DNA of 64,000 nucleotides from Thermoanaerobaculia bacterium (GTDB lineage Bacteria; Acidobacteriota; Thermoanaerobaculia; Multivoradales; UBA5704), in the NCBI GenBank assembly GCA_036399915.1, contig DASWME010000219.1:343-64342 (forward strand), given 5' to 3'. The position numbers were made by a program, and so were the translations under genes. Position 1 is the first letter of the stretch. Each line of letters starts with the position of its first letter. Below are positions 1 to 13,740 of the stretch, one piece after another. The notes under the pieces are model-generated. The model was not told the DNA's origin. It did not search any database and worked only from the letters and a program-made list of their open reading frames with translations.

Positions 1-192
1 AGGCGGACAGGCGCGCAGGCGCGCGATCAAACCCGGCAGCCGCTGCCGCTCGCGCGAGATCTCCTGGACGCGCTCGCTCAGACGAGGGAGGAGACGATCG
101 AACGCCCGCCCATGGAACGAGAGGCGGCTCCCTTCCCAGATCTGTCCCCACTCCCTGCGACAGACCCACCAAGTGGATAACAGGTGGCGCAC
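1..192 (-). CDS. partial ORF of unknown function (first 64 codons; continues beyond the left edge)
   Basis: GTG at 190-192 lies 18 nt downstream of the anti-sigma stop (210-212). The frame stays open to position 1 (VRHLLSTWWVCRREWGQIWEGS...LIARLRACPP). No family recognised. Absent from the ORF track because it has no stop inside the window. Confidence 0.25.
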   Translation of the reverse strand, partial: MRHLLSTWWVCRREWGQIWEGSRLSFHGRAFDRLLPRLSERVQEISRERQRLPGLIARLRACPP

Positions 193-209
193 GGGAACAG
201 CCGGCAGCT

Positions 210-1589
210 TCAGGAGGGAGGCGTGAACCGCAGCTCAGGATTCTCGCGTGCCTGCTTCAGGAATCCCGAGACCTTACGGACGAGCTCGAGCTCCACCTGG
301 TCCAGGCGGGCGGCGGTGCAGAAGGCCAGGAGAGCCGCCATGGCCTCCCGATGGGTGTTGTGAGCCTGGAACACGGTGAGCGTCTCCTCGGCGACACGGC
401 GTACGTCGGCGCTCCGCCCTTGCAGGATATAGACGCCAGCCAGGTCGAGGGAAGCCAGTGCGGCGTCGTATCCGAGGCCCAGTTCGACGAAGCCCTCCCG
501 GACCTCCCGGAAGGCCGCCTCGGCCTGCTCGATCCGCTGCAGCGCGAAAGCCACGAGACCTTCCAGCCAGCGAAGCTTCAGGAGGTTCATGCGCCCGCCC
601 GCCTTCAGATAGAGAGGCCGGGTGTGGAAGAGCAGGGCGAAGGCCTCGCGCGACCGGCCGCTCTCGTTGAGCGCGTTGATCAGGTTGTGCCGGGCGGCGA
701 GGAACACCCGCGGGTCGCGCTGAGGGTCGATCAGATCGAGCGCCCGCCGCAGCAGCCTGATCGCGCCCTCAAGGTCCCCGGCCACGGTGCAGACCATCGC
801 CTTCTGGAGGAGCGTCCGCCCGAGAAGGCTCCACTGTCCCAAGGTCTTGTAGAGAACGGCGACGCGGTCGAAAAGCTGGAAGGCTTCGTCGAACCTGTGT
901 TGCTCCCTGCGCAGGGACGCCAGCAGGGCGAGCACCCGCGCCCGGTCGAGGAGGCCGATGCAACCCTCCTCCAGCAGGGATTCGGCGACGGCGAACGCCC
1001 TCTCGGCGCTGGCATGGTCTGAATTGACGCGGAAGGCGTTGCCGAGATGAGCCCAGGCCCTCGCCCGCAGGCTGTCCAGCGGCTCCTCGCCGCCGCAGTC
1101 CTCCTTCTCCAGGCGGTCCGCCACCAGCGTGCCGAGATGGGCGGCTTCGATCGACCGGCGGGGATCCTCGAACCCGGTCTCGTGGCTCTCCTCGATGAGC
1201 CGCTCGCAGAGCATCCGGTTGCGGAAGCGATGGCTGTTGCTCACCAGGAGGTGCCGGCGCTCCGCCGGGACTTGCATCAACTCCGCGAAGAGCTCGCAGC
1301 CTGCCGCCCGCTGCTCGGCCACGGCCGCTTCCGCGGATACCACCCGCGCGAAGACCCGGTCCAAGACCTCGTCGTAGCCGTCCCGGGCATTCTCCTCCCC
1401 TGCCGCTTCCAGGGCGCGGTCCAGCGGATCGTCGAGCTCGTCGCCAGGCTCCCAGAGGGTGGCCGTGGCCTCATGGCACTGTCGGCAGCCGGTCAGCAGG
1501 TGCCGTGCGATCTCCCGCATCTCCGGTGCGGAGAGCTGTCCCAGCACGAACCGCTCCAGGGCCTCTGGCGCCGGATGGATCTCAGTCAT
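210..1589 (-). CDS. soluble anti-sigma-factor-like protein: N-terminal ZAS-type zinc finger (H-x3-C-x2-C) plus long TPR-like helical-repeat domain
   Basis: 459-aa ORF with N-terminus ...IARHLLTGCRQCHE.... No hydrophobic TM segment seen. Its start overlaps the stop of the upstream sigma gene by 8 nt (1582-1589). Full-length paralog of 3247-4584. Confidence 0.7.
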   Translation of the reverse strand: MTEIHPAPEALERFVLGQLSAPEMREIARHLLTGCRQCHEATATLWEPGDELDDPLDRALEAAGEENARDGYDEVLDRVFARVVSAEAAVAEQRAAGCELFAELMQVPAERRHLLVSNSHRFRNRMLCERLIEESHETGFEDPRRSIEAAHLGTLVADRLEKEDCGGEEPLDSLRARAWAHLGNAFRVNSDHASAERAFAVAESLLEEGCIGLLDRARVLALLASLRREQHRFDEAFQLFDRVAVLYKTLGQWSLLGRTLLQKAMVCTVAGDLEGAIRLLRRALDLIDPQRDPRVFLAARHNLINALNESGRSREAFALLFHTRPLYLKAGGRMNLLKLRWLEGLVAFALQRIEQAEAAFREVREGFVELGLGYDAALASLDLAGVYILQGRSADVRRVAEETLTVFQAHNTHREAMAALLAFCTAARLDQVELELVRKVSGFLKQARENPELRFTPPS

Positions 1590-2118
1590 TGCCGGTCTTC
1601 TTCCTGCCGAACCCCGACAGCGTCAGATACCGCGTCAGGGCGTCGATACACCTCGTCGTGATCTTGCTGATGCTGGCAGGGCTGTAGCCCAGCCGCTCCG
1701 CCAGCTCCGGAGGCTCGTACCCCTGGCGATAGCGCAGCGACAGCAGAGAACGGCAGCGCTCCGGCAGGCGCTCCAGGGCGCTCGCCAGATCGCGGCGCAG
1801 AGTGGTCTCTTCCTGAGCCGGCGCGAGCGGCTCGGCCACGTCCTCAAGAACCGCGGAATCGACGGAGTCATACAGCTTGCGCCGCTGCTCTCTCCAGTAC
1901 AGCAGGCACTTGTTGCGCAGGGTCCCGAGCAGCCAGGCTTCCGGATCCCGGATCTCCTGGGATTGATACACGAGGGCGAGCAGGGCCTGCTGCAGGATGT
2001 CCTCCGTGTCCTGGGGAGGAATGCGATAGTGCGCGAACAAGGCCTTGAGACGAGGCCGGACCCTCCTCAGAAAGCCTTCGAGCGATGCCTCGACTTGCGG
2101 TTGGTCCAGTGCACTCAT
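1582..2118 (-). CDS. ECF-type RNA polymerase sigma factor (paralog 1)
   Basis: 178 aa. Region-2-like DTEDILQQALLALV...EAWLLGTLRNKCLLYWR and region-4 HTH LPERCRSLLSLRYRQGYEPPELAERLGYSPASISKITTRC. Translationally coupled to 210-1589. Confidence 0.85.
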   Translation of the reverse strand: MSALDQPQVEASLEGFLRRVRPRLKALFAHYRIPPQDTEDILQQALLALVYQSQEIRDPEAWLLGTLRNKCLLYWREQRRKLYDSVDSAVLEDVAEPLAPAQEETTLRRDLASALERLPERCRSLLSLRYRQGYEPPELAERLGYSPASISKITTRCIDALTRYLTLSGFGRKKTGND

Positions 2119-2240
2119 GGTCCCGGGGAGCGCCTCTTCTAAATTTCAGGATACACTACCACTATCCCGGAAGCGTGTCCAGTCAGGAGGGACCGGAAAA
2201 CCTGGCCGCCGCAGCCGGCCGAGGCTTGGCTCCCGAGGAG

Positions 2241-2459
2241 CTAGGAATTGCCCTCAGGATCGATCATCACGCCGGCCTTCTCGAGGACGGCGATCAGGAG
2301 CCTCCAGGGGGAGAAGGACTCAAACCTGCTGGATACGTCGCGGCCCTTCCGCCCTGAGCGGTCTCGTGGCTCCGCGCTTACGCTCCGCACGGGGAGCAGC
2401 GCGAGGACGGACACCAGTGCGGTGGAGGCGAGGGCGCGGCGAAGCTTGGGCTGGAACAT
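2241..2459 (-). CDS. small secreted peptide (72 aa, predicted signal peptide), unknown function
   Basis: MFQPKLRRALASTALVSVLALLPVRSVSA|EP... has n-h-c signal-peptide architecture. A strong SD AAGGAG lies 7 nt upstream of the ATG (reverse complement of 2460-2480 reads cgatcctgaaaggagattgcg). Sits between sigma paralogs 2 and 1. Confidence 0.5.
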   Translation of the reverse strand: MFQPKLRRALASTALVSVLALLPVRSVSAEPRDRSGRKGRDVSSRFESFSPWRLLIAVLEKAGVMIDPEGNS

Positions 2460-2621
2460 CGCAATCTCCTTTCAGGATCGTCTGCTTGGCGGAACGGCCA
2501 TAGGCCTCTTGAAGGCTCCTACAGAACAGTTACCGCAGGAGAGCCTCCGGGGGACACGAAACCTGAAGGGAGAAGCCGACTCGCTCCGCGGACGCCCAGG
2601 CCGATGGACGGCGGGACGGGC

Positions 2622-3149
2622 TCAGGGCTCAGGCTGGAATCCGGCCCCGAGAAGCTGCTCCGTCAGGGCTGCCAGGCAACGACGGGTGACTTTCCGGATG
2701 CTGGACTTGCAATAGCCTGTCCTCTCCGCCGCCTCGGCGGTGCTGCAGCCGAACCCATAGCGGAGACGGAGCACGGAACGGCAGCGGTCGGGCAGGCGCG
2801 AGAGCAGGGTGTCGAGGTCGTAGCGCAGATCCGCCTTCTCCTGCGGCGGCGCTTCCACGTCGGCCAGCAGCTCGAGGATGGCGCTGTCGACCAGGTCCCA
2901 CAGCCGGCTGCGGTGCTTGCGCCAGTAGAGGATGCAGCGGTTGGCCAGGGTCCCGAGCAGCCAGGCCTCGGGATTCCGGATGCTCCCCCACTTGGAGATC
3001 ATGATGAGAAAGGTGTCCTGTAGCAGGTCGTCCACATCCTGCGCGGGGATCCTGTAGCGGCTGAGGACCCTCTTCAGCCTGGGCTCCATCCTCTCCAGGA
3101 CGTCTTCGAGAGAAGGCTCCGCCAGATCCGGGGGGACCGAAGGTTTCAT
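2622..3149 (-). CDS. ECF-type RNA polymerase sigma factor (paralog 2, no adjacent anti-sigma gene)
   Basis: 175 aa. DVDDLLQDTFLIMI...EAWLLGTLANRCILYWRKHR and LPDRCRSVLRLRYGFGCSTAEAAERTGYCKSSIRKVTRRC. Clearly homologous to 1582-2118 and 4577-5131. Confidence 0.85.
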   Translation of the reverse strand: MKPSVPPDLAEPSLEDVLERMEPRLKRVLSRYRIPAQDVDDLLQDTFLIMISKWGSIRNPEAWLLGTLANRCILYWRKHRSRLWDLVDSAILELLADVEAPPQEKADLRYDLDTLLSRLPDRCRSVLRLRYGFGCSTAEAAERTGYCKSSIRKVTRRCLAALTEQLLGAGFQPEP

Positions 3150-3246
3150 TGCAGTAGCTAAATGTAACGAGGGCTTAATCTAGCAGCATTCCCGCCCTTT
3201 GTCCAGCAAGGACGGCTCGCGCGAGGTTTCCCGGGCCAGGAGGGCT

Positions 3247-4584
3247 TCAGCGGGGTTCCCGGAAGCGGAGCCCCAAGTCGGCGCGCGAGTCCTTGAGATA
3301 GCCGCTCACTTCCCGGATCAGGCCGAGGGTGACGCGCTCCATCTGTGCCGCTTTCTGGAACAGGAGCAGCGCGGCGATGGCCTCGCGGCGGATGTCCAGG
3401 GACTTGAAGATGGAGAGCATCTCCCCGGCCAGGCGGCGCATCTCGGCGCTCCGGCCCTGCTGGGCGTAGCTGTCGGCCAGGTCGAGGGAAAGCAGGGCGG
3501 CGTCGTACTCGAGCTCGCGCTCGATCAGCTCCTGGCGCACGTCCCGCAGGATCTCCTCGGCCTCGGCGAACCGCTTGAGGGAAATGGCGATCTTCCCCTC
3601 CAGCCAATGCAGGCGCAGCAGGCTCATCCGGTCTCCGACCTGGTGGTAGAGGGGCCGCGCGCGCTCCAGGAGGCGCATGGCCTCGTCGCTCTGCCCGCTC
3701 TCGAACAGGAAGAGGATCAGGTTGTGCTGGGCCGCGACCAGGAGGCGCGGATCGGAGGACGGGTCCAGCTTCCGGATCCCTTCCGTCAGGCAGGGGATCG
3801 CCGCCTCCTGATCGTTGGCAATCCCGAGGAGGAAGCCCCGCATGATGAGAGCCCTGCCGCAGAGCTGGGGATCGTCCAGCCTGCGGCCGATCGCGAGGGC
3901 CCGGTCGAGCAGCCGGAGGGATTCCCGGAAGCGCTGCTGATTGCCCAGCAGGGAGGACTTGAGGAGGAGGACGTGGGCCTTCTCCACCGGATCTCCAGTC
4001 CCCTTCTTGAGCAGCCGCTCGGCCCTGGCGAAGCTCTCCTCGGCGTTGCGGAAGTCCGAGCGGATGCGCTGCGCGTTGGCCAGGCCCGCCCAGGCTCGCG
4101 CGACCAGGTCGTTCACCCGCGACTCTCCATAGGCGGCGGGGTCGAGCCGCGCCGCGACCTCCACGCCCAGCTTCGCGAGCTCGAGGGCCCGCGCCGGATC
4201 CTGGAAGCCCCGCTCGCGGGCCGCCTCCAAGAGCAGCTCGCAGAAGCCCCAGGAGCGATACCGGGAGCTGCCGGTCGCCAGGATCCGCTGCTGCTCGCAC
4301 GGCTGGGCCAGCAGCTCGCGCAGCAACCCGGGCGCCGCCGTCCGCTCGGCGGCGAGGTCGGCCTGCCGGCGCTCGGTCTCCCGCCAGGCCCGCACGAAGG
4401 CCCTGCCGTAGTCGAGCCATCCCGCGTCGCCTCCCACCCGGGCCGGGGGGAGATAGCGCGAGGCGATCCGGCAGCAGTGCCCGCAACGCGCGAGGAGGTG
4501 ACGGACGATCTCGCGGTTGCGGCGACGGGAGAGCCGTCCGCGCGCGAACATCGAGAGGAGGACCGGATCGGAGTGCTTATCCAT
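3247..4584 (-). CDS. soluble anti-sigma-factor-like protein (ZAS-type zinc finger plus TPR-like domain), paralog of 210-1589
   Basis: The track ORF 3247-4797 is trimmed to the ATG at 4584 (MDKHSDPVLLSMFARGRLS...VRHLLARCGHCCR). This start reproduces the same 8-nt overlap with the upstream sigma stop (4577-4584) seen in the other pair. The C-terminus ...YLKDSRADLGLRFREPR parallels ...FLKQARENPELRFTPPS. Confidence 0.7.
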   Translation of the reverse strand: MDKHSDPVLLSMFARGRLSRRRNREIVRHLLARCGHCCRIASRYLPPARVGGDAGWLDYGRAFVRAWRETERRQADLAAERTAAPGLLRELLAQPCEQQRILATGSSRYRSWGFCELLLEAARERGFQDPARALELAKLGVEVAARLDPAAYGESRVNDLVARAWAGLANAQRIRSDFRNAEESFARAERLLKKGTGDPVEKAHVLLLKSSLLGNQQRFRESLRLLDRALAIGRRLDDPQLCGRALIMRGFLLGIANDQEAAIPCLTEGIRKLDPSSDPRLLVAAQHNLILFLFESGQSDEAMRLLERARPLYHQVGDRMSLLRLHWLEGKIAISLKRFAEAEEILRDVRQELIERELEYDAALLSLDLADSYAQQGRSAEMRRLAGEMLSIFKSLDIRREAIAALLLFQKAAQMERVTLGLIREVSGYLKDSRADLGLRFREPR

Positions 4585-5131
4585 CCTGCGGTTCGCCTTC
4601 GGGCTCGCGTTCGAAGCCGACAGCCAGGAGCTGCCGGGTGAGTGCCGCGAGACAACGGTTGGTGACTTTGCGGATGCTGGAGGTGCGGTAGCCCATCTGC
4701 TCCGCCACCTCGGTGGGCCCGTAGCCCAGGCCGTACCGCAGCTTGAGGAGCGAGCGGCAGCGGGTCGAGAGACGGGACAGCACCCGGTTGAGGTCACAGG
4801 TCAGCTCGGCCTTCTCCTGATCCGGCGCCTGCGGGGTCGCGAGCAGGTCCAGGATGGCCGTGTCGACGGATTCGCAGAGGCTGCCCCGGCGCTTGCGCCA
4901 GTACATGATGCACTTCTTCTTGACAGTGCCGACCAGCCAGCTCTCGGGGCTGCGGATCTTGTCCCACTTGTAGAGCAGGGTGAGCTGCGCATCCTGGAGG
5001 ATGTCCTCCGCATCCTCTGGAGGGATCTCGAAGTTCCTGAGCACGCGCTCCAGCCGAGGGCGCGAGTTCCTCAGCAGAAGGTTGAGTGATTCCCGCAGTT
5101 CAGGATGGTCGAGAGTTGCCATAGAAATCAT
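4577..5131 (-). CDS. ECF-type RNA polymerase sigma factor (paralog 3)
   Basis: 184 aa. DAEDILQDAQLTLLYKW...ESWLVGTVKKKCIMYWRKRR and LSTRCRSLLKLRYGLGYGPTEVAEQMGYRTSSIRKVTNRC. Confidence 0.85.
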   Translation of the reverse strand: MISMATLDHPELRESLNLLLRNSRPRLERVLRNFEIPPEDAEDILQDAQLTLLYKWDKIRSPESWLVGTVKKKCIMYWRKRRGSLCESVDTAILDLLATPQAPDQEKAELTCDLNRVLSRLSTRCRSLLKLRYGLGYGPTEVAEQMGYRTSSIRKVTNRCLAALTRQLLAVGFEREPEGEPQDG

Positions 5132-5216
5132 ATCTGCCGTCGACAGTTGCCTAGGCTAACACCCCGTACGCCCCCTGTCCAGATGAACGGGGAGTCTCTG
5201 GGTATTACCCCCTCCC

Positions 5217-5255
5217 GCGTTCATTTGGATGAACGCTGCAGGGAACGGGGTTCCC
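5217..5255. promoter_or_regulatory. two adjacent perfect palindromes in the divergent sigma-3 / membrane-protein intergenic region (candidate operator sites)
   Basis: GCGTTCAT-ttgg-ATGAACGC at 5217-5236, with a third ATGAACGG half-site at 5183-5190. GGGAAC-ggg-GTTCCC at 5241-5255. Confidence 0.3.
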
Positions 5256-5293
5256 TCGCGGCGCGGCATCGGGTCCGGTAAGATTCGCCCGCC

Positions 5294-6109
5294 ATGGGCG
5301 TTTTCTTCCTGTTCCTGCTGGCCACCTGTCTGGGGTCTCTCTCCACGCTCTACTGGATCCCCGAGTCGGACATGGGGCGCGGGTACTTCCAGATGAACGC
5401 CCTGGTGGTGCTGGGGCTTTTGGGCATCGCCGCGGCGGTGGTGGCGCTGCACCCGTTCCATCCGTTTGGCGACCAGCCCGCGGCCGGCGTTACGGCCCTG
5501 GCCGCCGCTCTCGCGGGGAGCTTCCTCTACTACGCCGCCATCTGGCGGGAGAGCTGGGACCTCTGCCGTTGGCCCCTGACCTTGGCGGCGGCCGGCAGCG
5601 CCGCGGCTCTCCTCCTCGCCGGCCCGCACGTGGTCTCCCCTCACGTCCCCCTCCCCCACCGCGGCGGCCTGCTGGCGGCGGCCCTCCTGGCCTCGGCCCT
5701 GCTCCTCGGCTGGTCGCTCATCACCATGCTCCTCGGCCACTGGTACCTGGTGGCGCCGAAGCTGACGTTCCGGCACCTGACGGTCTTCTGCTGGGTCCTG
5801 CTGGGAGTGGTCGTCCTCCGGCTGCTCTCGGTGGGCGCCACCCTGGCCATGGCCGCCGGGGTGAACGAGCTGGTGGAGCCCCACCCCCTGCGGGTGCTGA
5901 CCAGCCTCGGCGGCCAGGGGATCTTCTTCTGGTTCCGCCTGCTCTGGGGCCTCGCCATCCCGCTCGCCCTCGCGATCATGGCCTTGCACTGCGCGCGCCA
6001 ACGCTCGAACCAGTCGGCCACCGGCATCCTCTACGTGCTGGTGGTCGGCGCCTTCATCGGCGAGATCACAGGTTACTACCTCAGCGTGACCACCGGTGTG
6101 CCCGTGTAG
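5294..6109 (+). CDS. polytopic integral membrane protein, unknown function
   Basis: 271 aa with about 8 hydrophobic helices (e.g. ALVVLGLLGIAAAVVAL, LLAAALLASALLLGWSLITMLLGHWYLV, GIFFWFRLLWGLAIPLALAIMAL). No family recognised. Confidence 0.6.
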   Translation: MGVFFLFLLATCLGSLSTLYWIPESDMGRGYFQMNALVVLGLLGIAAAVVALHPFHPFGDQPAAGVTALAAALAGSFLYYAAIWRESWDLCRWPLTLAAAGSAAALLLAGPHVVSPHVPLPHRGGLLAAALLASALLLGWSLITMLLGHWYLVAPKLTFRHLTVFCWVLLGVVVLRLLSVGATLAMAAGVNELVEPHPLRVLTSLGGQGIFFWFRLLWGLAIPLALAIMALHCARQRSNQSATGILYVLVVGAFIGEITGYYLSVTTGVPV

Positions 6110-6116
6110 TTTCGAG

Positions 6117-6590
6117 ATGCGTGTCCGCACCCAGTGCCGCGACTGCGGGCTCCCCTTCCGCGCCGTCCTCTCCCCCGACACGGTAGAGCTCGCCTGCCCC
6201 AACTGCGGCAAGGCCCGCGCCGTGGCGCGCGAGGGATGGAGCGACGCGCCCGAGGCGCGCGTGGACGTCTGCCCCCTCTGCGGCTGCCGGTACCTCTACC
6301 GCCAGCGCGACTTCAACCGCGCCCTCGGCTGCGGCCTGGTCGCGGTGGGGGCGGCCCTGGTGCCCTGGACGTTCGGGCTGTCCCTCATCGCCTTCGGCCT
6401 GCTCGACCTCTGGTTGTACCGCCGCCTACGGGACGCGGTCGTCTGCTACAAATGCGATACGGCGTACCGCGACGCCCGCCCCGGCCCGCGGCAGGGGGAG
6501 TTCGACCTGCTGAAGCACGACGTGCTGAAGCACGGGAAGGCGTGGGAGCCGAAGCAGGGGCCGTCGGCGGAAACCGGCCCCCGTCCCTGA
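6117..6590 (+). CDS. zinc-ribbon protein with two C-terminal-half TM helices, unknown function
   Basis: Four CxxC pairs (CRDCG, CPNCG, CPLCGC, CYKCD) flank a hydrophobic hairpin LGCGLVAVGAALVPWTFGLSLIAFGLLDLWL. Start set at ATG 6117 (track start 6096 overlaps the upstream gene). Confidence 0.55.
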   Translation: MRVRTQCRDCGLPFRAVLSPDTVELACPNCGKARAVAREGWSDAPEARVDVCPLCGCRYLYRQRDFNRALGCGLVAVGAALVPWTFGLSLIAFGLLDLWLYRRLRDAVVCYKCDTAYRDARPGPRQGEFDLLKHDVLKHGKAWEPKQGPSAETGPRP

Positions 6591-10876: not shown

Positions 10877-13272
10877 CTGGCCGACTCCTTCGACGTCTTC
10901 CTGAGCCACAACAGCAAGGACAAGCCGGCCGTCCGCCGGATCGCGGAGGCGTTGCGGGACCGGGGACTGCGCGTCTGGCTCGACGAGTGGGAGTTGATCC
11001 CGGGGCGCCGCTGGATTCCTGAGCTGGAGAAGGTCATTGAGACCACGAGGACGGCTGTGGTCCTGGTCGGAGAGAGTGGCTTCGGGCGATGGGAACAGCC
11101 CGAGTATGAGGCTTCTCTCTCGGAGTTCGTTGAGCGTGGCCTCCCTGTCATCCCCGTTCTGTTGCCCGGCGCGCCGGCCAAGCCCAAGGTCCCGCTCTTC
11201 CTGAAGGGCTTTACCTGGGTCGATCTCCGTGGCGGCATCACTGACGAAGGCTTGAGTCGCCTCGAATGGGGCATTACCGGCAGCAAACAGGATCGGGAGG
11301 CGAAGGTTCAGGTCTCCCAGGCCCCACGCCTCCACAACCTCCCTTTCCTCTCCATCCGCGACCTCCTGAAAGGACGGGACGAGGAACTCCAGCGCCTCCT
11401 CACCAACCTGGGAAGCTCGGCTCAGGCCACGGCGATCACCAGGCCATCCACGGCCTGGGGGGCATCGGCAAAACCCGGCTGGCCGTGGAGTATGCCTGGC
11501 GCTCGGGTAATCGGTACGATGCGGCCCTCTTCGTGACGGCGGACTCCCCCGAGGCGCTGCGGTCGGGTCTGGCGAGCCTAGCAGGGCCGCGCATCCTTGC
11601 CCTTCCCGAGTACCAGGCCGGAGCGGAGGCGGAGACCGTCGAGGCCGTCCTGCGCTGGCTCCGGGAGCATTCCCGGTGGCTGCTGATCCTGGACAACGTG
11701 GACACGGAAGAAGCCGTGTGGGCCGTCCGGGAGATCCTGCCGCAGCTTCAAAGCGGCCACATCCTCATCACCTCCCGTTGGACGGAATGGTCGGCCGGAA
11801 TCCAGGAACAGCCGCTCGGCGTCCTCTCGAGGGAAGAGGCTGCCCAGTTCCTCCTCCAGCGCACACAGAGAAAAAGAACGTCCGCACCGGATGACGCCGA
11901 GCAGGCGGGCCGTCTGGCGGACATCCTGGGCGGCCTTCCTCTGGCTCTGGAGCAGGCGGCAGCCTACATTCGCCGCCATCAGACTACCTTTGCCCGCTAT
12001 CTGGAGGATTGGGAGCGTGAGCGCGAGAAGGTTCTGGAGTGGCACGACAGAACCGTCATGGACTATCCCGCCTCCGTAGCGGCGACCTGGCAGACGACCT
12101 TCCGTCAGCTCAGCCCGAAAGCCGCCGCCCTTCTCCGTCTGACTGCCTTCCTCGCCCCGGAGCCTATCCCCGAAGCGATGTTTGAAGAGGGCGAGGGGAT
12201 CGTTGAGGAAGCGTCTGCGGCCCTCATAGAGGAAACTGATCAGCTGGCGATCGAGCGGACTGTCCGGGATGTCCTCGCGGAGCTGGCCGCCTACTCCATG
12301 GTGACCCGGTCGACCGGCAACTTTACCGTCCATCGCGTTGTGCAAGAGGTTCTCCGGACCCGAATCCCTGGCGACCGTCGCCGGGAGTGGATCGAACGTT
12401 CCGTACGTCTGGTAAACGCCTACGCGCCATTCGACGCTGACGATGTCCGTACCTGGCCTGTCTGGGACCTTCTCCGTCCCCACGCGTTGCGAATCGTTAA
12501 AGAGGCGGACGATGTTGGTATTCCTTATCCCACCGCCAGCCTCATGGGCCAGTTGGCGCTTCTCCTTTTCGAGAAGAGCCTCTACGCGGAGGCCGAGCCG
12601 TTGATGCAGCGGGCCTTACAGGTCGGAGAAGACACCCTCGGACCCAATCACCCAGCAGTCGCCATCCGCCTCAACAACCTGGCGTCGTTGCTTCAGGCCG
12701 CGAACCGTCTGTCGGAGGCCGAGCCGTTGATGCGGCGGGTGGTGGAATTCTTCGAAATCAATCTGGGTCCTAACCACCATAACCTCGCCACGGCTCTGAA
12801 CAACCTGGCTCAGTTGCTTCAGGCCACGAACCGTCTGTCGGAGGCCGAGCCGTTGATGTGGCGAGCTTTGCAGATCGACGAGGGCTCCTTCGGACCCCAG
12901 CACCCCAAAGTCGCTATCCGACTCAGCAACCTGGCAGCATTGCTTTACGCTACGAACCGTCTGTCAGAGGCCGAGCCGTTGATGCGGCGGGCCTTGCAGA
13001 TCGACGAGGACTCCTTCGGACCCCAGCACCCCAACGTCGCCAGAGACCTCAACAACCTGGCTCGGTTGCTTCAGGCCACGACCCGTCTGTCGGAGGCCGA
13101 GCCGTTGATGCGGCGGGCGGTGGAGATCTGCGAGGCCAGCCTAGGGCCGGACCACCCCAAGACGCGGATTGCGCGGAAGAACCTGGAAGCCCTCTTGGAG
13201 GAGATGGGGTTGGCAGGCTCGCAGGATAGCCAATCCACTGAGGACCCTCCCCCATCTCCCCGGACCGGGTAG
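10877..13272 (+). pseudogene. TIR - NB-ARC (STAND NTPase) - TPR protein; reading frame interrupted by an apparent 1-nt frameshift near 11440 and lacking an ATG/GTG/TTG start upstream of the TIR core
   Basis: Frame 2 encodes the TIR domain: (L)ADSFDVFLSHNSKDKPAVRRIAEALRDRGLRVWLDEWELIPG...VVLVGESGFGRWEQPEYE...VIPVLL, then ...NLPFLSIRDLLKGRDEELQRLLTNLGSSAQATAIT. Frame 1 continues with QAIHGLGGIGKTRLAVEYAW (P-loop), WLLILDNVD (Walker B), ILITSR, GGLPLALEQAAAYI (the GxPLA motif of NB-ARC) and five 42-aa TPR units. An in-frame TAG lies at 10847. AAGGAG (10865-10870) sits 6 nt before CTG 10877. Confidence 0.8.
12575..13204 (+). repeat. five tandem 126-bp (42-aa) repeats encoding the TPR array of the STAND gene
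   Basis: The core CGAACCGTCTGTCGGAGGCCGAGCCGTTGATG recurs at 12701, 12827, 12953 and 13079 (CGACCC variant), an exact 126-bp period. A partial first copy has GAGGCCGAGCCGTTGATG at 12589. Confidence 0.9.
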
Positions 13273-13308
13273 AATCCGCCGGACTCGATCTCGGGGGAGA
13301 CGCGGCCC

Positions 13309-13740
13309 ATGAAGATCGGCATCGGCTCGGACCACGCCGGATACCGCTACAAGGAAGAGATCAAGAACTATCTTGCCGGGCTCGGCCACGAGGTGCGGGA
13401 CTTCGGCACGGACTCGGAGGAGTCCGTCGATTATCCTGTCTTCATCCGGCCCGTGGCACTGGCCGTGGCGAGCGGCGAGGTCGAGCGCGGGATCGTGCTC
13501 GGCGGGTCGGGCAACGGCGAGGCCATGGTGGCCAACCGGGTGCGCGGCGTCCGCTGCGCTCTCTGCTGGAACGAGGAGTCGGCGCGGCTTGGCCGGCAGC
13601 ACAACGACGCCAACGCGATCTCCCTCGGCCAGCGGATGATGACCCTGGAGACCGCCCTCGCCATCGTGCGGATCTGGCTCGAGACCCCGTTCGAGGGCGG
13701 CCGGCACGTGCGCCGGATCCAGATGATCGACGAGCCGTGA
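13309..13740 (+). CDS. rpiB: ribose-5-phosphate isomerase B
   Basis: MKIGIGSDHAGYRYKEEIKNYLAGLGHEVRDFG...GIVLGGSGNGEAMVANRVRGVRCALC... (RpiB/LacA/LacB family). Confidence 0.92.
   Translation: MKIGIGSDHAGYRYKEEIKNYLAGLGHEVRDFGTDSEESVDYPVFIRPVALAVASGEVERGIVLGGSGNGEAMVANRVRGVRCALCWNEESARLGRQHNDANAISLGQRMMTLETALAIVRIWLETPFEGGRHVRRIQMIDEP

What the first reader, a model, noticed from the sequence alone, without database searches (positions are those of the whole stretch)
210..5131. Tandem triplication of an ECF sigma module using soluble zinc-finger/TPR-like partners instead of membrane anti-sigmas
Three clearly paralogous ECF-type sigma genes (1582-2118, 2622-3149, 4577-5131) lie head-to-tail on the minus strand. 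Two are each followed, with an identical 8-nt start/stop overlap, by a partner of about 450 aa (210-1589 and 3247-4584). Each partner has an N-terminal H-x3-C-x2-C (ZAS-like) motif, RHLLTGCRQC and RHLLARCGHC. The rest of each partner looks like a long TPR-like helical repeat, and I see no transmembrane segment. Classical ECF anti-sigmas are usually single-pass membrane proteins, so a cytoplasmic ZAS-TPR sensor duplicated in tandem suggests intracellular, possibly redox or protein-ligand, sensing. The middle sigma has no such partner. In the equivalent position it is followed by a secreted micro-protein gene.
Basis: partly seen in the sequence, partly recalled or inferred. Interest (0 to 1): 0.6.

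Follow-up and report, generated by a model that had tools for sequence, protein, structure and literature searches.

The report
Peptide-linked sigma/anti-sigma gene array
A soil Acidobacterium (class Thermoanaerobaculia) carries an old, conserved block of three alternative sigma-factor genes held by soluble zinc-finger anti-sigma proteins whose large TPR domain most likely senses a small secreted peptide encoded in the same block, a signalling logic so far described only in Gram-positive bacteria.

Summary
In detail: there are three paralogous ECF sigma genes. Two are translationally coupled by 8-nt overlaps to soluble ~450-aa partners with no TM segment. A secreted 72-aa gene lies after the middle sigma.

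Corrections:
- The motif is H-x4-C-x2-C, not H-x3-C-x2-C, and there is an invariant upstream His.
- A third partner-like gene with a decayed zinc site starts at window 1-192 and continues on another contig.
- The array is an ancient triplication kept in at least five genomes.

The partner N-terminus is a class I zinc anti-sigma domain; its best sequence and fold matches are DdvA, ChrR and RslA. The rest is an 8-9-repeat TPR superhelix.

The micro-protein belongs to a family of exported pro-peptides ending in xxGxxIDPxG units. These accompany nearly all of the ~45 TPR paralogs in this genome, whether the paralog carries a ZAS or an XRE-HTH head. The trio peptide -> sigma -> ZAS-TPR recurs in three families of the order.

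Best reading (about 0.5): a peptide-gated soluble anti-sigma factor. Peptide binding, zinc binding and sigma binding are all untested. I found no description in the papers I searched. This scan had already found the same locus in other genomes (e1-1095155, e1-4548999, e1-5089895).

The parts
4577..5131 (-). sigma3: ECF-type sigma factor, 184 aa. It is the most conserved of the three across genomes.
   Evidence: Pfam Sigma70_r2 at 6e-11; the region-4 models match at 4e-4 and 7e-4 but below their cut-offs; TIGR02937 passes. Orthologous clade with 100/100 support and very short branches.
5153..5181 (-). Promoter-like site TGGACA-N17-TAGCCT with TG before the -10, 21 nt upstream of the sigma3 start.
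   Evidence: Conserved in 5 orthologous loci. It is one of only 11 such sites in the 6.37-Mb genome.
3247..4584 (-). Partner 3 (TPR3): soluble ZAS-TPR anti-sigma factor, 445 aa. The ZAS head is encoded at about 4450-4584 (H4, H29, C34, C37).
   Evidence: 8-nt overlap ATGGATAA with the sigma3 stop. TPR_12 at 2e-14. No TM segment. Orthologous clade 100/99.
3177..3205 (-). Promoter-like site TGGACA-N17-TAGATT with TG, upstream of sigma2.
   Evidence: Found by the sigma-70 consensus scan: 9/12 matches against 0.2 expected in shuffles. Conserved in orthologs.
2622..3149 (-). sigma2: ECF-type sigma factor, 175 aa, with no translationally coupled partner.
   Evidence: Orthologous clade 97/94.
2529..2556 (-). 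Conserved element TGTC-N17-CGGTAAC about 70 nt upstream of the pro-peptide gene. It is a candidate ECF-type promoter (weak evidence).
   Evidence: Same element with 16-17 nt spacing in L013 and L021. Only 7 genome-wide hits, 2 of them in cassette loci.
2241..2459 (-). Exported pro-peptide, 72 aa: signal peptide (1-29), variable pro-region, W-x6-L-x-K amphipathic stretch, and one C-terminal unit KAGVMIDPEGNS.
   Evidence: Member of the xxGxxIDPxG family. In 8 orthologs W52, L59, K61, I66, D67, P68 and G70 are invariant, and the unit number is 1-2.
2153..2181 (-). Promoter-like site TGGACA-N17-TAGTGT between the pro-peptide gene and sigma1.
1582..2118 (-). sigma1: ECF-type sigma factor, 178 aa.
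   Evidence: Orthologous clade 97/93.
210..1589 (-). Partner 1 (TPR1): soluble ZAS-TPR anti-sigma factor, 459 aa. The ZAS three-helix head is residues 1-46 (nt ~1452-1589; H5, H30, C35, C38). A disordered linker spans 47-70 and a long helix 72-106. The TPR superhelix spans 109-448 (nt ~246-1265).
   Evidence: 8-nt overlap ATGACTGA. AF2 pLDDT 84. N-terminal profile hits DdvA, ChrR and RslA. Foldseek hits to anti-sigma domains. TPR fold hits to LGN, Rap and MalT.
1..192 (-). TPR0: start of a third TPR paralog whose ZAS site has decayed (RHLLSTWWVC). In this genome it lacks the first ~27 residues seen in relatives. The gene runs off the window and contig and continues on contig C270:3-698.
   Evidence: It is orthologous to L013 7447-8916 and G065 (clade 100/100). 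tblastn plus the NDH2 neighbour confirm the join.

Best explanation
The locus is a three-branch sigma/anti-sigma switch whose input is most likely a secreted peptide. Each of the three ECF sigma genes has its own housekeeping-type promoter, so the sigmas are probably made constitutively (inferred). Sigma1 and sigma3 are co-translated with soluble anti-sigma factors. The N-terminal three-helix zinc domain of each (His5, His30, Cys35, Cys38) sequesters the sigma, as in ChrR, RslA and DdvA (inferred from homology and gene coupling). The C-terminal 8-9-repeat TPR superhelix is the sensor. Its likely ligand is the product of the 72-aa gene in front of sigma1. This is a Sec-exported pro-peptide whose conserved C-terminal unit (K-A-G-V-M-I-D-P-E-G-N-S) would be cut out, accumulate outside the cell and be taken up again. 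Two Opp-type binding proteins exist in the genome. Binding in the TPR groove would change the hold of the zinc domain on the sigma and so switch transcription on or off. The direction, the targets and the import route are unknown. TPR0, the third paralog with a decayed zinc site, may serve sigma2. The same TPR sensor with the same kind of peptide has been copied about 45 times in this genome, with either the anti-sigma head or an XRE-type DNA-binding head. Only the output differs between copies.
For: Sigma identity.

Anti-sigma head:
- H5, H30, C35 and C38 are invariant in 25 orthologs/paralogs and in 15 paralog N-termini.
- The N-terminal profile's five best PDB hits are DdvA (two entries, 3.8e-4 and 3.3e-3), ChrR (two entries, 1.6e-3, aligned from residue 1 through the ligands) and RslA (6e-3).
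- The AF2 model of residues 1-112 has pLDDT 86. 16 of its 22 Foldseek hits, all in the top 18 (ranks 1-16 and 18), are class I anti-sigma domains; RslA aligns at rmsd 1.4 A with probability 0.98.
- Paralogs with the canonical spacing pass Pfam zf-HC2.

Coupling to sigma:
- 8-nt overlaps in the window.
- The called gene coordinates give 8- or 4-nt start/stop overlaps at the sigma/partner junctions in relatives of five other genomes.
- Sigma -> ZAS-TPR pairs occur in all families that hold the TPR protein, including distant ones.

Soluble.

TPR sensor:
- AF2 pLDDT >90 over residues 90-380.
- The fold resembles peptide-binding TPR superhelices: LGN/Pins at 2e-7, and RapF, RapJ and RapH at 3-5e-5.
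- The polar residues N184 and R187 are invariant in 27/27 paralogs of both head types.

Peptide link:
- 23 of 55 genome-wide hits to a short C-terminal motif lie within 2.5 kb of a TPR paralog, a zone that covers 3.25% of the genome. About 1.8 would be expected.
- All such ORFs have a signal peptide, a W/F-rich stretch and 1-3 xxGxxIDPxG units.
- The trio peptide -> sigma -> ZAS-TPR is found in the window, L013, L021, L018, L016 and L017, which span three families.
- The C-terminal unit is the most conserved part among orthologs.

Housekeeping-type promoters. Importer present.
Against: - No binding, export, processing or uptake has been shown. All ligand assignment rests on gene neighbourhood.
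- The peptide gene is missing between sigma2 and sigma1 in two related genomes, G065 and G097. No peptide gene precedes sigma3.
- The window copies of the zinc domain do not hit Pfam zf-HC2 even at E <= 1, and they have a one-residue insertion in the motif.
- The G020 sigma-coupled TPR lacks the zinc head altogether.
- About 17 ZAS-TPR genes face only 7 sigmas of this clade, and most are not next to a sigma. So either many anti-sigmas share few sigmas or the head has other targets.
- The Foldseek similarity to Rap is no better than to generic TPR proteins, and no RNPP-specific Pfam model hits.
- Cell-envelope crossing by a peptide in a diderm is unproven.
Confidence: 0.5

Rival explanations
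1. Redox or thiol-stress switch of the RsrA/ChrR/RslA type. The zinc site itself is the sensor: oxidation releases zinc and frees the sigma. The TPR body is only a scaffold or binds a cytoplasmic protein. The small secreted protein is a product of the regulon, not its signal.
For: The HHCC ligand set sits at almost the same positions as in ChrR (H6, H31, C35, C38). ZAS domains of RsrA, RslA and ChrR are known redox or singlet-oxygen sensors (PMC4960319; DdvA paper PMC11506125). The peptide gene is absent from the array in two relatives.
Against: This does not explain why the same TPR domain with an XRE-HTH head, and so no zinc site, is also always paired with the same peptide family. It also does not explain why TPR0 keeps the TPR body after losing the ligands. 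Many ZAS sites are purely structural.
Confidence: 0.2
2. Secretion-coupled partner switch. The TPR domain acts as a cytoplasmic chaperone-like binder of the not-yet-exported precursor, as with the TPR class II chaperones of type III secretion (IpgC-MxiE logic). Sigma activity would then report export flux or envelope stress rather than cell density.
For: The receptor is cytoplasmic and the precursor is made in the cytoplasm, so no import step is needed in a diderm. The conserved amphipathic W-x6-L-x-K stretch precedes the unit. TPR proteins commonly bind extended C-terminal tails, and LGN-type structures are the best fold hits.
Against: One to three repeated units are separated by Pro/Ser/Thr-rich spacers. 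The HTH-linked members have Cys-bracketed units (GCxIDPxGxC). Both features suit processing and disulfide formation outside the cytoplasm. The signal peptides look like ordinary Sec ones.
Confidence: 0.12
3. The small proteins are exported effectors, such as bacteriocin-like or surface peptides. The TPR proteins are their dedicated regulators and respond to some other cue. Adjacency would reflect regulator-target pairing, not receptor-ligand pairing.
For: Regulators are often encoded beside their targets. No processing protease or dedicated exporter is seen in the cassettes.
Against: About 17 cassette copies per genome each pair one peptide with one receptor, and cassettes with different head types differ in unit sequence. 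This is the pattern of signal-receptor pherotypes. The peptides have no match to known toxin or bacteriocin families.
Confidence: 0.13
4. The N-terminal zinc module is not an anti-sigma domain, and the sigma adjacency is incidental operon packing.
For: Most ZAS-TPR paralogs in this genome are not next to a sigma gene. The window copies fail Pfam zf-HC2.
Against: Sigma -> ZAS-TPR pairs, most with overlapping stop/start codons, are kept across at least five families of the class. Almost all of the best sequence and fold matches are anti-sigma domains.
Confidence: 0.05

Closest known systems
ChrR / sigma-E of Cereibacter (Rhodobacter) sphaeroides (PDB 2Q1Z, 2Z2S)
   Same: A soluble two-domain anti-sigma: an N-terminal zinc anti-sigma domain plus a C-terminal sensor domain. 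It has an HHCC ligand set at nearly the same residue numbers (H6, H31, C35, C38 against H5, H30, C35, C38), aligned from residue 1. Its gene is next to an ECF sigma gene.
   Different: ChrR's sensor is a cupin that responds to singlet oxygen. Here the sensor is a ~350-aa TPR superhelix, with one extra residue between His and Cys and a secreted-peptide gene in the operon.
DdvA / DdvS of Myxococcus xanthus (PDB 8RLZ, 8ROT; PMC11506125)
   Same: It is the best PDB sequence match of the N-terminal domain (3.8e-4). It is a ZAS head joined to a large TPR-containing sensor and controls an ECF sigma.
   Different: DdvA is a transmembrane protein. Its TPR-CHAT domain is periplasmic, and release is proposed to occur by regulated proteolysis. 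The proteins here have no TM segment and no CHAT domain.
RsrA / sigma-R (Streptomyces) and RslA / sigma-L (M. tuberculosis, PDB 3HUG)
   Same: They are ZAS-type class I anti-sigma domains. RslA is the best fold match (rmsd 1.4 A, 39% identity over 38 residues). RsrA is soluble.
   Different: RsrA is a single small domain that senses thiol oxidation. RslA is membrane-bound. Neither has a TPR body or a peptide partner.
RRNPP peptide quorum-sensing receptors of Bacillota (Rap-Phr, NprR-NprX, PlcR-PapR, PrgX, Rgg-SHP, ComR-ComS, AimR-AimP)
   Same: They work alike in outline: a cytoplasmic TPR-type receptor encoded beside a small exported pro-peptide whose C-terminal part is the signal, with many paralogous receptor/peptide pairs per genome. 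Paralogs of this family with an XRE-HTH head have the same architecture as PlcR and NprR. Rap proteins appear among the fold hits.
   Different: The output domain here is an anti-sigma domain, not an HTH or a Rap-type three-helix bundle. The host is a diderm Acidobacteriote. No RNPP-specific sequence model hits. The fold similarity is no better than to generic TPRs. The peptides carry repeated xxGxxIDPxG units. Homology to RRNPP is not shown.
ECF42 sigma factors with a C-terminal TPR extension (Casas-Pastor et al. 2021, PMC7826278)
   Same: A TPR domain regulates an ECF sigma without a membrane anti-sigma.
   Different: In ECF42 the TPR is fused to the sigma itself and no anti-sigma is present. 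Here the TPR is fused to a separate ZAS anti-sigma.

Membership tests
ECF (group IV) sigma-70 family | Only regions 2 and 4 are present, the length is about 170-200 aa, and general ECF models match. | tested here: met
   Sigma70_r2 passes for all three and Sigma70_r4_2/r4 for two (sigma3's region-4 matches are below the cut-off). TIGR02937 scores 60-70 bits against a cut-off of 42.9. Best PDB relatives are CnrH, SigJ and SigL.
ECF (group IV) sigma-70 family | Assignment to a numbered ECF group (ECF Hub classification). | not testable with these tools
   No ECF-Hub HMMs were on hand. All NCBIfam subfamily models scored far below their cut-offs. The supplements of PMC7826278 are not held.
Class I zinc-binding anti-sigma domain (ZAS) | H-x3-C-x2-C motif plus a fourth His/Cys ligand about 24-26 residues upstream. 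| tested here: inconclusive
   All four ligands are invariant (H5, H30, C35, C38), but the spacing in the window copies is H-x4-C-x2-C. Six paralogs (of which 5 of the 15 aligned) and the distant-family pairs have the canonical spacing.
Class I zinc-binding anti-sigma domain (ZAS) | Match to Pfam zf-HC2 (PF13490) above the gathering score. | tested here: not met
   The window copies have no hit at E <= 1. 3 of 15 paralog N-termini do hit (best 3.4e-6), and the C287 paralog passes at 29.7 bits.
Class I zinc-binding anti-sigma domain (ZAS) | Three-helix bundle fold of anti-sigma domains. | tested here: met
   AF2 predicts helices 8-15, 21-32 and 36-46 with pLDDT 86. Foldseek hits 1-16 are RslA, ChrR, DdvA, RskA and RsiW (MucA follows at rank 18), though the E-values are weak (0.3-5) because the domain is small. 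Profile hits: DdvA, ChrR, RslA.
Class I zinc-binding anti-sigma domain (ZAS) | Encoded directly downstream of, and co-transcribed with, its ECF sigma. | tested here: met
   8-nt overlaps in the window. The same pairing occurs in relatives from at least five families. Co-transcription itself is inferred.
Class I zinc-binding anti-sigma domain (ZAS) | Binds zinc and sequesters sigma regions 2 and 4. | not testable with these tools
   No multimer prediction or experiment was available.
RRNPP quorum-sensing receptors | Cytoplasmic receptor with a TPR-type peptide-binding domain. | tested here: inconclusive
   The protein is soluble and has a TPR superhelix. Rap proteins are fold hits at ranks 32-40, behind LGN and designed TPRs. 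RapF is a sequence hit at only 6e-4.
RRNPP quorum-sensing receptors | N-terminal HTH DNA-binding domain (or the Rap three-helix bundle) as output. | tested here: not met
   The window proteins carry a ZAS head. XRE-HTH heads occur only in paralogs on other contigs.
RRNPP quorum-sensing receptors | Adjacent gene for a small exported pro-peptide whose C-terminal part is the signal. | tested here: met
   The gene layout is met. That the peptide is the signal is not tested.
RRNPP quorum-sensing receptors | Sequence-family membership (RNPP-specific models) and occurrence in Bacillota. | tested here: not met
   No RNPP model appears among the Pfam hits at E <= 0.1. The family was found only in class Thermoanaerobaculia among 251 Acidobacteriota genomes sampled.

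The most novel reading that the evidence does not exclude
Thermoanaerobaculia run a true peptide quorum-sensing system in a diderm cell. Its receptor is a soluble anti-sigma factor: an exported, processed xxGxxIDPxG peptide is re-imported, binds the TPR groove and releases an ECF sigma. This sigma-coupled form would be the ancestor from which a ~45-member family of peptide receptors arose by duplication and head-swapping. That family includes XRE-HTH receptors that converge on the RRNPP architecture.
Probability: 0.4. Interest if true: 0.85.

Novelty: new variant of a known kind. Interest (0 to 1): 0.66.

Why it matters
ECF sigma factors are the third great pillar of bacterial signal transduction, and almost all characterised inputs act through membrane anti-sigmas, proteolysis, redox chemistry or partner switching. 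A soluble anti-sigma whose sensor is a peptide-receptor-like TPR domain, encoded with its own exported pro-peptide, would add a new input class: a cell-cell or self-made peptide acting directly on sigma availability. It would also extend cytoplasmic-receptor peptide signalling, so far a hallmark of Bacillota, to a diderm soil phylum that is abundant but poorly studied. The parts are small, soluble and easy to express, so the hypothesis can be tested directly in E. coli and in vitro.

Tried and rejected
1. Autoregulated ECF promoter. The conserved element before each sigma gene is TGGACA-N17-TAGnnT with a TG extension. This is a sigma-70-like site also found before ordinary genes such as mraZ. 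I therefore dropped the idea that it is the ECF's own promoter.
2. Shared promoter upstream of about 20 peptide genes. Exact k-mer counts gave only the Shine-Dalgarno sequence and a GCCATGG loop, no better than shuffles. An automatic hairpin anchor was inconsistent. TGTC-N17-CGGTAAC is conserved in three orthologs but has only 7 genome hits, 2 of them in cassettes. I kept it as a weak lead only.
3. Rfam scan of window 1-6000: nothing at E <= 0.1.
4. Terminator scan: nothing above the shuffle expectation.
5. ECF group look-up in the supplements of PMC7826278: the supplements are not held.
6. Homolog search with the 72-aa peptide: only 2 foreign hits. Orthologs had to be read from loci instead.
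8. Neighbouring genes 5294-6109 and 6096-6590: no informative Pfam hit. I did not include them in the system.
9. Orphan sigma paralogs (C231, C266, C70, C348): none has a ZAS-TPR or peptide neighbour.
10. Recent tandem duplication: rejected by the trees.

Full report
OBSERVATION.

- Three '-' strand ORFs are 50-51% identical to each other: 1582-2118 (sigma1), 2622-3149 (sigma2) and 4577-5131 (sigma3).
- All three pass Sigma70_r2 and the general ECF model TIGR02937; two also pass Sigma70_r4_2 (sigma3's region-4 matches fall below the cut-off). No narrower NCBIfam subfamily reaches its cut-off.
- Their closest solved relatives are only distant: CnrH at 8e-7, then SigJ and SigL.
- The partners 210-1589 (TPR1, 459 aa) and 3247-4584 (TPR3, 445 aa) are 43% identical and hit several TPR models.
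- Each partner overlaps the upstream sigma by 8 nt, ATGACTGA and ATGGATAA.
- Neither partner has a hydrophobic stretch that could span a membrane; the maximum 19-residue hydropathy is 1.23 and 1.01.

One detail is wrong. RHLLTGCRQC and RHLLARCGHC are H-x4-C-x2-C, one residue longer than the canonical ZAS motif.

WHAT THE PARTNERS ARE.

I aligned the two window proteins with 10 paralogs from the same genome and 13 orthologs. Four putative zinc ligands are invariant: H5, H30, C35 and C38.

A profile of the first 112 residues finds anti-sigma factors as its five best PDB hits:
- DdvA, two entries, 3.8e-4 and 3.3e-3
- ChrR, two entries, 1.6e-3, aligned from residue 1 through all ligands
- RslA, 6e-3

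An AlphaFold2 model of this part (pLDDT 86) has three short helices, a floppy linker and one long helix. Its Foldseek hits 1-16 are all class I anti-sigma domains: RslA, ChrR, DdvA, RskA and RsiW; MucA follows at rank 18. The E-values are weak, as expected for 45 residues, but RslA aligns at rmsd 1.4 A with 39% identity.

Pfam zf-HC2 does not hit the window copies. It does hit paralogs that lack the extra residue. I therefore read the head as a ZAS-type anti-sigma domain with a one-residue insertion.

The full-length model (pLDDT 84, above 90 for residues 90-380) shows an 8-9-repeat TPR superhelix. The best fold matches are peptide-binding TPR proteins (LGN/Pins, 2e-7). RapF, RapJ, RapH and MalT domain III follow at about 3-5e-5.

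OUTSIDE THE GIVEN COORDINATES.

The window is G000:C219:343-64342. The genome is a Thermoanaerobaculia (Acidobacteriota) assembly, judging by the names on homologs.

A third TPR paralog, TPR0, starts at window 192 and runs off the contig.
- Its C-terminal half is on contig C270:3-698, followed by an NDH-2 gene exactly as in a relative.
- Its zinc ligands have decayed: RHLLSTWWVC here, RNLLAAWRAY in L013.
- The block therefore holds three sigmas and three TPR proteins. TPR0 is a candidate partner for sigma2 (inference).

Each sigma gene is preceded by TGGACA-N17-TAGnnT with a TG extension, at window 5153-5181, 3177-3205 and 2153-2181.
- The sites before sigma3 and sigma2 are conserved in orthologs; the sigma1 site was seen in this genome only.
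- Only 11 such sites exist in 6.37 Mb. The others precede ordinary genes.
- These look like housekeeping promoters, so control is probably post-translational (inference).

THE MICRO-PROTEIN IS THE KEY.

A genome census found about 45 paralogs of the TPR body. Their heads are of three kinds:
- H-x4-C-x2-C
- canonical H-x3-C-x2-C
- an XRE-type helix-turn-helix

Clustering the neighbours of these genes revealed a recurrent small ORF. A motif search then showed that 23 of 55 genome-wide hits lie within 2.5 kb of a TPR paralog. That zone covers 3.25% of the genome, so about 1.8 hits would be expected.

All of these ORFs encode 71-116-aa proteins with:
- a signal peptide;
- a Trp/Phe-rich amphipathic stretch;
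- one to three C-terminal units xxGxx[IVM]DPxG, which are Cys-bracketed (GCxIDPxGxC) in the HTH-linked cassettes.

The window ORF 2241-2459 (...LEKAGVMIDPEGNS) is a member. Among eight orthologs the invariant residues after the signal peptide are W52, L59, K61, I66, D67, P68 and G70. The unit number varies between 1 and 2. I found this before consulting the scan's earlier notes. Those notes describe the HTH-TPR/peptide cassette on other contigs of this genome and the same sigma array in other genomes.

COMPARATIVE GENOMICS.

The whole block, sigma3-TPR3-sigma2-peptide-sigma1-TPR1-TPR0, lies next to metK in GCA_035940855.

Sigma1, sigma2, sigma3, TPR1 and TPR3 each form a well-supported clade with one member from each of five genomes; TPR0 forms a well-supported clade seen in three of them. 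The triplication is therefore old.

The three-gene unit peptide -> sigma -> ZAS-TPR also occurs in G041, G020, G015 and G113, which span three families.

Distribution:
- The sigma clade and the TPR family occur in the same few families: 8 and 9 of 121 genomes of the class.
- A profile search of 251 Acidobacteriota genomes found the family only in this class.
- More distant families keep sigma -> ZAS(H-x3-C-x2-C)-TPR pairs. In three of the six loci inspected a small secreted protein follows the TPR gene, with a different tail such as ...PAVPIPG.
- Sigma-linked TPRs sit on both sides of the midpoint root of the TPR tree, and the HTH-linked ones form one nested clade. This suggests the sigma-coupled form is ancestral. 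That is a parsimony inference and the root is uncertain.

MECHANISM.

- Shown by sequence: ECF sigmas; a soluble partner with a ZAS-like head and a TPR body; overlapping start and stop codons at the junctions; an exported-looking pro-peptide of a family tied to this TPR domain.
- Inferred: the head sequesters the sigma. The TPR groove binds the processed peptide; its polar residues N184 and R187 are invariant in 27/27 paralogs. Binding then changes sigma availability.
- An uptake route is plausible. There are two Opp-type binding proteins, one of them on the contig richest in cassettes.
- Unknown: the direction of control, the regulon and the processing enzyme.

I give the full peptide-gated anti-sigma model about 0.5, and the narrower claim 'soluble ZAS-type anti-sigma for the adjacent sigma' about 0.85.

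RIVALS.

- Redox sensing at the zinc site, with the peptide as a regulon product (0.2).
- A secretion-coupled chaperone-like switch (0.12).
- The peptide as an exported effector under TPR control (0.13).
- The head not being an anti-sigma domain (0.05).

Points that weaken the main model:
- The peptide gene is absent from the array in G065 and G097.
- One sigma-coupled TPR, in G020, lacks the zinc head.
- About 17 ZAS-TPR genes face only 7 sigmas of this clade, and most are not sigma-adjacent.

KNOWN SYSTEMS AND NOVELTY.

- ChrR is the closest in design: a soluble ZAS head plus a C-terminal sensor.
- DdvA is the closest in sequence and also joins ZAS to TPR, but it is transmembrane, with a periplasmic TPR-CHAT domain.
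- RRNPP systems are the closest in logic. The output domain, the phylum and sequence-family membership do not match, so I do not file this as RRNPP.
- ECF42 has the TPR fused to the sigma itself.
- Full-text searches for combinations of ECF, anti-sigma, TPR, peptide, Acidobacteria, Thermoanaerobaculia and RRNPP found no description.

I class it as a new variant of known kinds: a ZAS anti-sigma with a peptide-receptor-type sensor.

LIMITS.

No multimer prediction and no ECF-Hub classification were available. All ligand assignment rests on conserved gene neighbourhood.

Noticed in passing
window 1-192 (-), continuing at G000:C219:1-534 and G000:C270:3-698: The third TPR paralog (TPR0) is split by an assembly break. 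C219's left end joins C270's start, and NDH-2 follows as in relative L013. In this genome TPR0 also lacks the first ~27 residues (helix 1 of the anti-sigma head) that relatives have.
   Followed up: yes
5' leaders of peptide genes on other contigs, e.g. G000:C55 upstream of 13118-13600, and C13, C18, C84, C300, C338, C379; a weak version at window ~2495-2510: Most pro-peptide genes carry a GC-rich hairpin or palindrome with a CCATGG/CTATGG centre (for example GCCCTGGCGGCC-ATGGT-GGCCGCCGGGGC) 20-60 nt before the start codon. It occurs in both ZAS-linked and HTH-linked cassettes. It could be an operator or an RNA element. No Rfam family matched in the window.
   Followed up: partly
G000:C231:21239-23492 (-): An orphan sigma of the same clade has the same TGGACA-N17-TAAGTT promoter. 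It is followed not by a ZAS-TPR but by a 543-aa P-loop (GWPGSGKM) protein, possibly a STAND/MalT-like regulator.
   Followed up: no
G000:C256:15514-16575 (+): One of only two Opp/Dpp-type peptide-binding protein genes in the genome lies on the contig that carries four TPR/peptide cassettes, between two groups of them.
   Followed up: no
window 5294-6109 (+) and 6096-6590 (+): A 271-aa polytopic membrane protein with no Pfam match and a 164-aa zinc-ribbon/TM protein lie between the array and ahcY/metK. Genes of similar length (271 aa and 157 aa) stand at the same place in L013, but I did not compare the sequences. A link to the array is unknown.
   Followed up: partly
L026 4062-4274, L028 4143-4605, L027 4063-4224 (distant families of the class): In distant relatives the sigma -> ZAS-TPR pair is followed, not preceded, by one or two small secreted proteins. 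These have a conserved amphipathic helix (ERVIRAVKKIV) and tails such as FDQPAVPIPG or VIDIPQGDD. They may be a diverged form of the peptide partner.
   Followed up: partly
L018 (G020:C2) 2613-3989: This TPR partner overlaps its sigma by 8 nt and is preceded by a peptide gene (...GVYIDPIGNS), but it has no zinc head. Its first ~66 residues are unrelated and low in complexity.
   Followed up: no
G000:C300:23427 (+): The element TGTC-N16-CGGTAA, shared with the window's peptide leader (both read CCTGCGGTAA), lies just upstream of the ZAS-TPR gene of another cassette. It is a possible shared promoter, but there are only 7 genome hits in all.
   Followed up: partly
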